DNA of 64,000 bases from a virus (lineage: Duplodnaviria > Caudoviricetes): the IMG/VR virus record IMGVR_UViG_3300027759_000043, one strand, 5' to 3'. Within the stretch, counting starts at the first letter, position 1, and each line of letters opens with the position of its first letter. The notes beneath the pieces are model-generated. The model was given only the letters and a program-made list of their open reading frames with translations. It did no database searches and had not been told where the DNA came from. A program made the position numbers and the translations under genes. Of this stretch, positions 38,581 to 39,635 are shown in pieces.

Positions 38581-38769
38581 TTAAAAGAATGGTAATCCGG
38601 ACTTCTTGGTTGTTTCTAAGTTCTCTTTGATTAGTTCGCCAATCATTTCTCGATCATTGGCACTTAGAGCCATGGCCTGATCGTACGCCAATCCTCCACG
38701 CATGTACCAACTGAGTTTTACCGCCTCGTTTCTTATCAGTTGACAGTCCTTGTCCATGGCCTCTATCAT
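38581..38769 (-). CDS. Tail/baseplate assembly chaperone, 'T-like'/gp51-like segment (62 aa from ATG, or the -1 frameshift extension of the upstream gene)
   Basis: KLSWYMRGGLAYDQAMALSANDRE; the frame stays open upstream across the gp26-like stop. Confidence 0.7.
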   Translation of the reverse strand: MIEAMDKDCQLIRNEAVKLSWYMRGGLAYDQAMALSANDREMIGELIKENLETTKKSGLPFF

Positions 38770-38795
38770 CTGACTGATTTCCTCAGGGCTAGAGA

Positions 38796-39635
38796 TCAGG
38801 AGGCGTCCCCGAAAAAACTTGCCATGTCCAGGGTAAACGGTTGTGAATACTTGTGTCCACATTCGGTACAGATCAAATTAATTGGTTTGATCTCACTGGC
38901 CTGCTTGAGTGCAATCACATGATCTCTCAGTTGGGCAAACACTCGACTGTCACAGTTGTTGAGAAATTCAAAAATGTAATTGATTTCAGTTACCAGTGCG
39001 TCGGGGGTCTTGATTGCACCTATACTTTGGGCAACAGTTTTTAATGTGAGTTCATTCATGACCTTCATGCTTTGATTCAGTTGCGCTAGTTTGGCAGTTT
39101 CTTCTGCTTCGGCATTGTCTAGTATTCGCAGTGCTTGTTGTTGTTCAAACTGCACTTGATTGTTTTGATTGACATCTTTGTAATTGATGGGTTTGAAGTA
39201 AAATTCAAGATTTCCCACTGACAGACTCTTGTCGTACTCTCCTGGCAAGATTTGATCATTGATTATTCGTAAATCCACTGTGATTTCGTCCTGGTGGTTA
39301 CAACTGGAACAAGTGGTATTCACATCCATTCCGTGTCCAAAACTGGCAATGCGTATGGCCACTAACACAGCGTCGATGTCTGTACTGGGCATGACCCAGG
39401 GATCTCTAATGCCGGGCACACAACTCTGTATAACCGAAACTATGGCAGATCCATTGAACAGCGCATCGGGGGTGCGATAGGTTATTTCGTCCACGGCTGT
39501 CATGGGCAATACTGGCAATTCTCCATTGGGTGGCATGTTTAAACTACCTGTTGGATAGAACTTACCCCCGCTGGGTAGTTTGATGTGAATTGCTGGTTGT
39601 CTAAAAAATTGACTTAGGGGATTGGGTTGTTGCAT
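38796..39635 (-). CDS. Baseplate hub assembly chaperone, T4 gp26-like
   Basis: Likely start MQQPNPLSQFFRQP at 39635 (279 aa). I.LPS.G.FY, MTAVDEI...TPDAL.NG, DIDAVLVAIRIASFG and two CxxC pairs. Confidence 0.8.
   Translation of the reverse strand: MQQPNPLSQFFRQPAIHIKLPSGGKFYPTGSLNMPPNGELPVLPMTAVDEITYRTPDALFNGSAIVSVIQSCVPGIRDPWVMPSTDIDAVLVAIRIASFGHGMDVNTTCSSCNHQDEITVDLRIINDQILPGEYDKSLSVGNLEFYFKPINYKDVNQNNQVQFEQQQALRILDNAEAEETAKLAQLNQSMKVMNELTLKTVAQSIGAIKTPDALVTEINYIFEFLNNCDSRVFAQLRDHVIALKQASEIKPINLICTECGHKYSQPFTLDMASFFGDAS

What the first reader, a model, noticed from the sequence alone, without database searches (positions are those of the whole stretch)
38581..38830. Candidate programmed -1 frameshift (lambda G/GT-style) in a T4 gp26-like chaperone
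Seen: the gp26-like gene ends ATG GCA AGT TTT TTC GGG GAC GCC TCC TGA, containing the slippery heptamer T TTT TTC (38817-38811), four codons before its stop. The -1 frame is open from there through RGRLLISSPEEISQ into the 62-aa ORF, giving a ~351-aa fusion. A possible stimulatory hairpin (CTGAT-CTC...GAG-GAA-ATCAG) starts ~11 nt downstream. The extension (SWYMRGGLAYDQAMALSANDRE) resembles T/E'-type segments, and the neighbouring gene is tape-measure-like. Established: such frameshifts occur in lambda, P2 and Mu tail chaperones; I do not know one demonstrated for T4-type gp26/gp51. Caveat: a GAGGA ~10 nt before ATG 38769 could allow independent initiation.
Basis: partly seen in the sequence, partly recalled or inferred. 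Interest (0 to 1): 0.72.

Follow-up and report, generated by a model that had tools for sequence, protein, structure and literature searches.

The report
Frameshifted T4-type tail chaperone gene
One gene of this freshwater giant phage very probably makes both a short (T4 gp26-like) and a long (T4 gp51-like) tail/baseplate assembly chaperone by a programmed backward slip of the ribosome on UUUUUUC, a real and deeply conserved feature that was already described for T4-like phages in 2022.

Summary
The minus-strand gp26-like gene (39635..38796, PF12322) carries T_TTT_TTC (38817..38811) in the correct register, four codons before its stop. The -1 frame is open from there to 38581, giving a 351-aa product.

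Comparative evidence is strong:
- All 32 homologous loci examined that have a downstream extension keep T_TTT_TTY at the same invariant Phe-Phe. These include RaK2, PA5oct, Atu_ph07, cyanophage S-WAM1 and 15 metagenomic relatives.
- In all of them the -1 frame opens just before the site.
- The conserved peptide R-x-R-L-L-x-x-P-E-E-I begins before any start codon. PA5oct has no start codon at all in the extension.

T4 itself encodes the two forms as separate paralogous genes. gp26 ends FFELL* with non-slippery TTC TTT. gp51 is PF12322 plus an extension in one frame. In-frame fused homologues of 319-351 aa also exist.

The proposed hairpin is no better than chance and is not conserved.

The kind is already published: Vladimirov, Gautam and Davidson, Virology 2022, identified T4-like tail assembly chaperone genes. 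I know that paper only through papers that cite it. This locus is therefore a new member of a known kind, and it is mis-annotated as two genes in every public record inspected. No product was observed here, and ribosomal versus transcriptional slippage is not resolved experimentally.

The parts
38796..39635 (-). ORF1, the short form (279 aa). It is a T4 gp26-like baseplate-hub / tail assembly chaperone with a four-Cys zinc ribbon (C109, C112, C256, C259) and an invariant C-terminal Phe-Phe (F274, F275).
   Evidence: PF12322 T4_baseplate E 9.6e-15, profile positions 39-218 of 219. phrog_150 'baseplate hub' E 3e-14. Invariant columns come from alignment A1, which includes T4 gp26.
38811..38817 (-). 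Slippery heptamer T_TTT_TTC (U_UUU_UUC) in 0-frame register, encoding the invariant Phe-Phe.
   Evidence: The heptamer is conserved as T_TTT_TTC, or T_TTT_TTT in Xoo-sp13 and XacN1, in all 32 other extension-bearing loci examined. No insertions or deletions were seen in independent assemblies. H_HH.U_UU.Y motifs are among the most efficient -1 motifs in E. coli (PMC4066793).
38796..38810 (-). 0-frame tail after the slip site: GGG GAC GCC TCC TGA (GDAS*). This stretch is dual-coding with the -1 frame.
   Evidence: The 0-frame tail varies in sequence and length (1-11 codons) among homologues, whereas the -1 reading R-x-R-L-L is conserved.
38581..38811 (-). -1 frame extension: 76 aa plus TAA (RGRLLISSPEEISQ...KKSGLPFF*). 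It is the C-terminal domain of the 351-aa long form (gp51-like).
   Evidence: tblastn finds it in the -1 frame, overlapping the end of the gp26-like gene, in 29 phage records. It matches the C-terminal 77 residues of natural in-frame 319-351-aa proteins. A profile of the jumbo-phage extensions against gp51-type C-termini gives hhalign E 1e-4 over 55 colinear columns.
38767..38784 (-). GAGGA (38784..38780) followed by ATG (38769..38767). This is a possible but non-conserved internal start for a free 62-aa peptide.
   Evidence: The ATG is replaced by TTG, CTG or CTA in close relatives. The first ATG lies at extension codon 4 to 39 across loci. An SD-like motif precedes it in only 2 of 33 loci, and PA5oct has no ATG, GTG or TTG at all.
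38774..38799 (-). GAGGAAATCAG). It is not supported as a stimulator.
   Evidence: MFE z = -0.09 against shuffles, and the hairpin is not part of the MFE fold. The RNAalifold consensus of 13 relatives is -0.44 kcal/mol.
39660..41813 (+). Divergently transcribed tape-measure-like gene, the presumed client. Its ATG lies 24 bp from the ORF1 ATG.
   Evidence: There is no Pfam family. It shows weak, colinear similarity to the N-terminal part of RaK2 ORF088, which is annotated as similar to a tape measure protein (E 5e-4). The same divergent neighbour is present in the jumbo-phage loci. No BLAST similarity to T4 gp29.

Best explanation
The gene at 39635..38796 (minus strand) is the T4-type tail/baseplate-hub assembly chaperone gene of an uncultured freshwater jumbo phage, and it encodes two proteins.

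Most ribosomes terminate at the TGA and make the 279-aa short form, the equivalent of T4 gp26. A minority slip back one base on U_UUU_UUC. The two tRNA-Phe re-pair from UUU-UUC to UUU-UUU. Translation then continues in the -1 frame to 38581 and makes a 351-aa long form whose extra 76 residues correspond to the C-terminal tail of T4 gp51.

T4 and its close relatives reach the same pair of products with two paralogous genes, 26 and 51. This phage, other jumbo phages, cyanophages and several other T4-like lineages use one gene plus recoding.

What is shown and what is inferred:
- Shown here: the sequence signals, their conservation and the homologies.
- Inferred, by analogy with lambda G/GT and from genetics and literature on T4 gp26/gp51: the low abundance of the long form, and its role in chaperoning the tape measure and nucleating hub/tube assembly without ending up in the virion.
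For: 1. ORF1 is a complete PF12322 domain.
2. The heptamer is in register, and the -1 frame is open to give 351 aa.
3. In 16 divergent cultured jumbo phages (23-31% aa identity), 13 complete IMG/VR relatives (a further two give the same heptamer but incomplete or duplicate loci), and three non-jumbo T4-like phages (S-WAM1, OLIVR5, LPCS28), four things hold:
   - T_TTT_TTY sits on the invariant Phe-Phe 3-13 codons before the stop.
   - The -1 frame opens only 0-28 codons upstream.
   - The -1 frame runs 54-74 aa beyond the stop.
   - The fusion length is tightly conserved at 346-355 aa in 15 of the 17 jumbo-phage-type loci, window included.
4. Codon statistics: P(T_TTT_TTY | x-F-F) is 0.06-0.33 per locus, and the motif was observed in 18 of 18.
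5. Negative controls: T4, Acinetobacter 3014 and Aeromonas avDM7 have no extension and carry a separate gp51 gene. They lack the heptamer (T4 uses TTC TTT).
6. T4 gp51 is PF12322 (E 4e-52) plus a C-terminal tail. That tail matches phrog_634 and phrog_150 positions 231-281, the same positions hit by the -1 extensions of S-WAM1 and LPCS28. The alignment is colinear, and hhalign between the jumbo-phage extensions and gp51-type tails gives E 1e-4.
7. Natural in-frame fusions of 319-351 aa exist. Their junction reads ...SSF-RSRIL..., and AF2 models one as a single compact unit (pLDDT 93.9, pTM 0.88). One lineage has tandem short and long genes.
8. The conserved peptide starts before any start codon, and PA5oct has none at all.
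9. No indels were seen at the T6 run in independent assemblies.
10. Literature: gp26 and gp51 are hub assembly chaperones, and gp51 is absent from the particle (PMC3004832). T4-like TAC genes with poly-T slip sites or two-gene arrangements are cited in PMC12846349 and PMC10274946. U_UU.U_UU.Y belongs to the efficient class of motifs in E. coli (PMC4066793).
Against: - No protein, peptide or RNA evidence is available for this phage. No RNA run is listed as holding this sequence.
- No conserved downstream stimulatory structure or upstream SD-like element was found, so the efficiency is unknown and may be low.
- Inserting one U during transcription of the T6 run would give the same protein, and sequence alone cannot exclude it.
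- Homology of the window's own extension to T4 gp51 is only indirect. The narrow profile A2 against gp51 was not significant. The broader profile gave E 1e-4 but only 57% probability.
- The own record is a 94.5-kb fragment (27% complete), so a separate gp51-like gene elsewhere in the roughly 349-kb genome cannot be excluded.
Confidence: 0.8

Rival explanations
1. The same two products arise, but by transcriptional slippage. RNA polymerase inserts one extra U in the run of six, so a fraction of mRNAs encode the long form in a single frame.
For: The site is a homopolymer: T6, or T7 in Xoo-sp13 and XacN1. No RNA stimulator for ribosomal slippage was found. The predicted protein would be identical. 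[quoted passage not shown]
Against: Six U is short for efficient slippage by bacterial RNA polymerase. Known cases use about nine or more, which I state from my own knowledge of the field. The conserved unit is exactly the in-register heptamer x-x-T TTT TTC. Both tRNAs can re-pair on it, and it belongs to the efficient H_HH.U_UU.Y class. The run is never lengthened in 31 of 33 loci, although lengthening would favour polymerase slippage.
Confidence: 0.09
2. There is no recoding. The downstream frame is a separate small gene (62 aa from ATG 38769, with GAGGA 10 nt upstream), translated on its own and acting in trans with the gp26-like protein, as public records annotate it.
For: A plausible SD plus ATG exists in this window. 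Gene callers and GenBank records annotate small separate ORFs. Sullivan et al. 2010 treated the cyanophage ORFs as short gp51 (PMC3037559).
Against: The start is not conserved. The ATG is TTG, CTG or CTA in close relatives. The position of the first ATG ranges from extension codon 4 to 39. An SD-like motif is present in only 2 of 33 loci, and PA5oct has no ATG, GTG or TTG in 75 codons. The most conserved residues, R-x-R-L-L-x-x-P-E-E-I, lie upstream of these starts and begin exactly at the slip site. In-frame fusions exist in nature.
Confidence: 0.05
3. Artefact or decay: a sequencing or assembly error in the homopolymer, or a recently frameshifted pseudogene of a single 351-aa gene.
For: Homopolymer runs are error-prone, and in-frame 319-351-aa homologues exist.
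Against: The same T6 run with the same frame relation is found in 32 other independent genomes and contigs. Contigs of four independent runs laid on the stretch (two of which span the site) show no insertion or deletion. The in-frame homologues have a different, non-slippery junction.
Confidence: 0.01

Closest known systems
T4 gp26 / gp51 tail assembly chaperone pair and their single-gene, frameshifted counterparts in T4-like phages (Vladimirov, Gautam and Davidson, Virology 2022; 566:9-15)
   Same: Same protein family: PF12322, a four-Cys zinc ribbon and a terminal Phe-Phe. Same logic of a short and a long form sharing the N-terminal body. Same poly-T slip site as reported for TAC-N genes of T4-like phages (as cited in PMC12846349). 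T4 gp26 aligns as the short form and gp51 as the long form.
   Different: T4 uses two divergent paralogous genes and no slip site (TTC TTT). Here one gene is used, in a roughly 349-kb freshwater jumbo phage. I could not read the 2022 paper, so I cannot say whether it covered jumbo phages (RaK2, PA5oct, Atu_ph07 groups). None of the public records inspected annotates the frameshift.
Lambda G/GT (and P2 E/E+E', Mu) tail assembly chaperones with a conserved -1 frameshift (Xu, Hendrix and Duda, Mol Cell 2004)
   Same: The heptamer lies a few codons before the stop of the upstream ORF. The long form shares the whole short form and adds a small C-terminal domain. The gene is associated with the tape measure gene. 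The long form is expected in low, 'catalytic' amounts and is absent from virions.
   Different: No sequence or fold similarity to solved or classical TACs was detected. The gene is divergent from the tape-measure-like gene rather than lying between the tube and tape measure genes. The slip motif is U_UUU_UUC rather than G_GGA_AAG. The protein body is much larger (275 aa, with a zinc ribbon).
Cyanophage 'short gp51' baseplate hub assembly catalyst ORFs (phrog_634; Sullivan et al. 2010, PMC3037559)
   Same: These small ORFs are the same -1 extension. In S-WAM1 the extension follows T_TTT_TTC at the end of gp26 and hits phrog_634 at E 4e-31.
   Different: They are described there as truncated stand-alone gp51 genes lacking the first ~200 aa. 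The window's extension is too diverged to hit phrog_634 directly.
E. coli dnaX gamma/tau -1 frameshift
   Same: A bacterial-type -1 slip on an X_XXY_YYZ heptamer that yields two products with a shared N-terminus.
   Different: dnaX depends on an upstream SD-like element and a strong downstream hairpin. Neither is evident or conserved here. In dnaX the shifted product is the shorter one.

Membership tests
T4-type tail assembly chaperone (gp26/gp51 family, Pfam PF12322 T4_baseplate) | PF12322 domain above the gathering score | tested here: met
   55.3 bits against a cut-off of 24.5, E 9.6e-15, profile positions 39-218 of 219. It is the only PF12322 gene in the 94.5-kb own record.
T4-type tail assembly chaperone (gp26/gp51 family, Pfam PF12322 T4_baseplate) | Two CxxC pairs (zinc ribbon) and a Phe-Phe at the end of the domain | tested here: met
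   C109, C112, C256, C259, F274 and F275 are invariant in alignment A1 of 15 sequences, which includes T4 gp26.
T4-type tail assembly chaperone (gp26/gp51 family, Pfam PF12322 T4_baseplate) | A long form carrying a gp51-type C-terminal extension directly after the Phe-Phe | tested here: inconclusive
   Position and length match. The extension matches the C-termini of natural in-frame long forms (E down to 1e-22). The jumbo-phage extension profile against gp51-type tails gives hhalign E 1e-4 at 57% probability. However, the narrow window-clade profile against T4 gp51 alone is not significant, and there is no phrog_634 hit.
T4-type tail assembly chaperone (gp26/gp51 family, Pfam PF12322 T4_baseplate) | Required for hub/tail assembly, with the long form absent from the virion | not testable with these tools
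   Known for T4 gp51 (PMC3004832). No data exist for this phage.
Programmed -1 ribosomal frameshift site (X_XXY_YYZ type) | Heptamer in the 0-frame register that allows both tRNAs to re-pair | tested here: met
   T_TTT_TTC at 38817..38811. It belongs to the efficient H_HH.U_UU.Y class.
Programmed -1 ribosomal frameshift site (X_XXY_YYZ type) | Conservation of the site and of an open, coding -1 frame in homologues | tested here: met
   Met in 32 of 32 other extension-bearing loci. The site is absent in the three loci examined that use a separate gp51 gene, whereas the tandem two-gene lineage L040 keeps a relic heptamer on a closed -1 frame.
Programmed -1 ribosomal frameshift site (X_XXY_YYZ type) | Downstream RNA stimulator (hairpin or pseudoknot) at 5-9 nt | tested here: not met
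   z = -0.09 in the window. The structures found in homologues are heterogeneous, and the clade consensus is -0.44 kcal/mol. A stimulator is common but not obligatory for -1 PRF.
Programmed -1 ribosomal frameshift site (X_XXY_YYZ type) | Trans-frame protein actually produced | not testable with these tools
   No RNA run is listed as holding this sequence and there are no proteomics data.
Lambda G/GT-type TAC (Xu, Hendrix, Duda 2004) | Gene pair located between the tail tube gene and the tape measure gene, on the same strand | tested here: not met
   The gene is divergent from the tape-measure-like gene, with their ATGs 24 bp apart. No gp19-type tube gene was found in the own record.
Lambda G/GT-type TAC (Xu, Hendrix, Duda 2004) | Sequence or fold similarity to gpG-like chaperones | tested here: inconclusive
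   No Pfam TAC family at E <= 0.1. No PDB match by sequence, by Foldseek or by VIA-align beyond generic helical hairpins. The BFVD matches are all gp26/gp51-like proteins.
Lambda G/GT-type TAC (Xu, Hendrix, Duda 2004) | Binds the tape measure protein, and through the extension the tube protein | not tested
   No complex prediction or experiment was run.

The most novel reading that the evidence does not exclude
The recoded single-gene arrangement is the ancestral and dominant state across the whole T4-like superfamily, including the RaK2, PA5oct, Atu_ph07 and XacN1 jumbo-phage groups, where it has not been annotated. It has been resolved into two separate genes at least twice independently: divergent 26/51 in T4-type phages, and a tandem short plus long pair in the L040 lineage. 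It also works on a bare U_UUU_UUC with no conserved RNA stimulator. That would make it a clean natural system for studying stimulator-independent -1 frameshifting and the evolutionary exchange between recoding and gene duplication.
Probability: 0.4. Interest if true: 0.5.

Novelty: new member of a known kind. Interest (0 to 1): 0.35.

Why it matters
It confirms, in an uncultured freshwater jumbo phage and in many cultured jumbo phages, that the T4-type chaperone gene is one recoded gene rather than 'baseplate hub' plus a small hypothetical ORF. Every public record inspected is mis-annotated in one of four ways:
- two ORFs;
- no second ORF at all (PA5oct, RaK2);
- a 'short gp51';
- a metal ATPase.

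Correct annotation gives the true long form, which is the likely functional equivalent of the enigmatic 'catalytic' T4 gp51. The comparison with T4 shows recoding and gene duplication as interchangeable solutions. This offers a handle on what gp51 does and on how much long form is needed. The biology itself is not new, since it was published in 2022.

Tried and rejected
- computed the wrong (+1) frame through an off-by-one error. Its '-1 ORF' lines are void, and one search replaces them.
- The extension P0002 has no Pfam or PHROG hit at E <= 0.1, so the suggested likeness to lambda T or P2 E' segments has no support.
- The search for related loci with the 15-sequence alignment A1 failed because no stretch was conserved enough. 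The single protein was used instead.
- hhalign of the narrow window-clade extension profile against T4 gp51 alone was not significant.
- The PDB search by sequence, Foldseek against PDB and Swiss-Prot AFDB and VIA-align wide gave no meaningful match for the long-form model. Only a generic helical hairpin (residues 133-196) matched.
- No RNA holder is listed among the sequencing runs. Only contigs could be laid, so expression and transcript slippage could not be examined.
- The window's tape-measure-like protein shows no BLAST similarity to T4 gp29.
- PF06841 (the gp19 tube protein family) was not found in the 94.5-kb own record.
- No complex prediction was run.
- The 2022 Virology paper is not held in the library, so its content is known only through citing papers.
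Full report
**What is in the sequence**

The gene lies on the minus strand. ORF1 runs from ATG 39635 to TGA 38798..38796 and encodes 279 aa. Its last codons read ATG GCA AGT TTT TTC GGG GAC GCC TCC TGA. T_TTT_TTC therefore occupies 38817..38811 in the X_XXY_YYZ register, four sense codons before the stop.

The -1 frame is closed upstream of 38877 and open from there to TAA 38583..38581. A -1 slip gives ...DMASFF|RGRLLISSPEEISQMIEAMDKD...KKSGLPFF, 351 aa in all. 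The internal ATG 38769, preceded by GAGGA, and the letters of the proposed hairpin are also present.

**What the proteins are**

- ORF1 is a complete PF12322 'T4_baseplate' domain (E 9.6e-15, profile 39-218 of 219) and matches phrog_150 'baseplate hub'.
- The extension has no Pfam or PHROG hit.
- The divergent plus-strand neighbour (ATG 39660..41813) has no Pfam family. It is weakly and colinearly similar to the RaK2 protein annotated as tape-measure-like. The next gene is a T4 gp20 portal.
- The own record is a 94.5-kb fragment of an uncultured freshwater phage. It has a single PF12322 gene. The identical protein is also seen on a 349-kb contig.

**Comparative test of the frameshift**

tblastn of ORF1 and of the extension against 50,697 phage records finds both in jumbo phages. 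The extension match always begins at its first residues, overlaps the end of the gp26-like gene, and lies in the -1 frame.

I fetched 16 such loci: Atu_ph07, Phosso, Vibrio 2.275.O, CBB, SCTP-2, Serratia BF, E. coli A4, EJP2 and Turkey5, Munch, Yen9-03, Xoo-sp13, XacN1, PA5oct, RaK2 and XbC2. They share 23-31% identity with ORF1. I also fetched 17 IMG/VR relatives at 37-86% identity.

In every locus with complete sequence the following hold:
- T_TTT_TTC sits on the same Phe-Phe, 3-13 codons before the stop. In Xoo-sp13 and XacN1 it is T_TTT_TTT.
- The -1 frame opens only 0-28 codons upstream and continues 57-74 aa past the stop.
- The post-slip peptide R-x-(R/K/Q)-L-L-x-x-P-E-E-I is conserved.
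- The fusion length is 346-355 aa in 15 of the 17 loci (window included), whereas the 0-frame tail varies from 1 to 11 codons.

With Phe-Phe taken as given, the chance of T_TTT_TTY is 0.06-0.33 per locus, and it was observed 18 times out of 18. Nucleotide identity within the window's clade has a local peak at the site. Contigs of related populations pile up on 38798..38844, with no insertions or deletions.

**Independent initiation is not the conserved mode**

- The window's ATG 38769 is TTG, CTG or CTA in close relatives.
- Across 33 loci the first ATG lies anywhere from extension codon 4 to 39.
- An SD-like motif precedes the first ATG in only two loci.
- PA5oct has no ATG, GTG or TTG in its 75-codon extension.

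**Link to T4**

T4 gp26 (208 aa) ends ...KEFFELL*. Its Phe-Phe is encoded TTC TTT, and gene 25 starts at its stop, so it has no slip site and no extension.

T4 gp51 (249 aa) is itself PF12322 (E 3.9e-52 over residues 1-201) followed by a C-terminal tail. That tail matches phrog_634 'baseplate hub assembly catalyst' and phrog_150 positions up to 280.

Three non-jumbo T4-like phages carry T_TTT_TTC 3-4 codons before the gp26 stop and a 54-62-aa -1 extension: cyanophage S-WAM1, Agrobacterium OLIVR5 and Cronobacter LPCS28. These extensions hit phrog_634 at E 4e-31, 3e-8 and 6e-11, at the same profile positions as the gp51 tail. In contrast, Acinetobacter 3014 and Aeromonas avDM7 have a separate gp51 gene and lack the site.

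A MAFFT alignment places gp51 ...VF-KLLV-NPDEI...MIPAERGF... against the fusions ...FF-RxRLL-xxPEEI...MPxxDR..., and gp26 against the short form. A profile of 21 jumbo-phage extensions aligns colinearly with gp51-type tails (hhalign E 1e-4, 55 columns, probability 57%). The narrower window-clade profile against gp51 alone is not significant, so this last link is supported but not strong.

**Natural fusions**

A profile of the extension, searched against 1.84 billion proteins, finds many small ORFs. It also finds proteins of 319-351 aa that match over their last 77 residues. Their junctions read ...SSF-RSRIL..., encoded AGT TTC AGA, which is not slippery.

One such gene lies in tandem behind a 294-aa short paralogue. 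That paralogue still carries AAT TTT TTC, but its -1 frame is closed.

AlphaFold2 models one such natural long form (P0277) as one compact unit (pLDDT 93.9, pTM 0.88), with the extension forming four helices. Structural neighbours among viral models are all gp26/gp51-like baseplate hub proteins. Nothing meaningful was found among solved structures.

**Mechanism**

U_UUU_UUC lets both tRNA-Phe re-pair after a one-base backward slip. H_HH.U_UU.Y motifs are among the most efficient -1 motifs in E. coli, and most heptamers shift detectably without stimulators (PMC4066793).

I found no conserved stimulator. The window's downstream 60 nt fold no better than shuffles (z = -0.09). Homologues have heterogeneous hairpins at varying distances, and the clade consensus is -0.44 kcal/mol.

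Transcriptional insertion of one U would give the same protein and cannot be excluded from sequence. I rate it unlikely for two reasons. The run is only six residues, and what is conserved is the in-register heptamer rather than a longer run.

**Function**

T4 gp26 and gp51 are hub assembly chaperones, and gp51 is needed for assembly but absent from particles (PMC3004832). A minor, frameshift-made long form fits that 'catalytic' behaviour and parallels lambda G/GT. Binding to the tape measure and tube proteins is inferred, not tested.

**Prior knowledge**

Sullivan et al. 2010 noted that cyanophage 'gp51' is only about 20% of normal length but did not invoke recoding (PMC3037559).

[quoted passage not shown] Citing papers report two points from it:
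- Some T4-like phages carry one short gene and one longer fused gene instead of frameshifting (PMC10274946).
- Poly-T sequences are -1 signals in TAC-N genes of T4-like phages (PMC12846349).

I could not read the paper itself.

**Verdict**

The kind is known, and this locus is a new member. The scan had also flagged this same stretch in an overlapping window.

Noticed in passing
L040:411-2389: A metagenomic lineage has resolved the two forms into tandem genes. A 294-aa short PF12322 gene ends ...NFFTDNK* and still carries AAT TTT TTC, but its -1 frame is closed. It is followed by a 351-aa in-frame long form with a non-slippery junction (AGT TTC AGA). This two-gene solution looks independent of T4's divergent 26/51.
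   Followed up: partly
L010:671-1546 (Yersinia phage fHe-Yen9-03), L011 (PA5oct), L013 (RaK2), L036:1620-1760 (OLIVR5): Annotation problems in public records. The gp26-like gene of fHe-Yen9-03 is named a 'Lead, cadmium, zinc and mercury transporting ATPase'. PA5oct and RaK2 annotate nothing over the extension. OLIVR5 and the cyanophages call a fragment of the extension 'baseplate hub assembly catalyst'.
   Followed up: partly
window 39635-39660: The ATGs of the chaperone gene (minus strand) and of the tape-measure-like gene (plus strand) are only 24 bp apart. Each promoter and leader must therefore lie within or against the other gene's start.
   Followed up: no
window 38798-38844: When contigs of other freshwater metagenomes are laid on the stretch, depth rises several-fold just around the slip site. 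Contigs of more distant relatives align only there, which shows that it is the most nucleotide-conserved piece of the 501-base stretch laid (38560..39060).
   Followed up: partly
model m6db95087dc99 versus BFVD: The gp26/gp51 fold also matches uncharacterised proteins of 450-690 aa in jumbo phages (Erwinia phiEaH2 and Special G, Klebsiella Eowyn). It further matches proteins of Bacillus SP-15, Campylobacter CP220 and an Ackermannviridae protein (E 1e-7 to 4e-4). The family may therefore reach well beyond T4-like phages.
   Followed up: no
window 37520-38573: Directly downstream on the same strand lies a phosphoribosyltransferase gene (PF00156, E 4e-12). It is followed by a 179-aa ORF, which I did not scan against any family library; another note of this scan reads it as MtnN. 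These are auxiliary metabolic genes placed next to structural genes.
   Followed up: no
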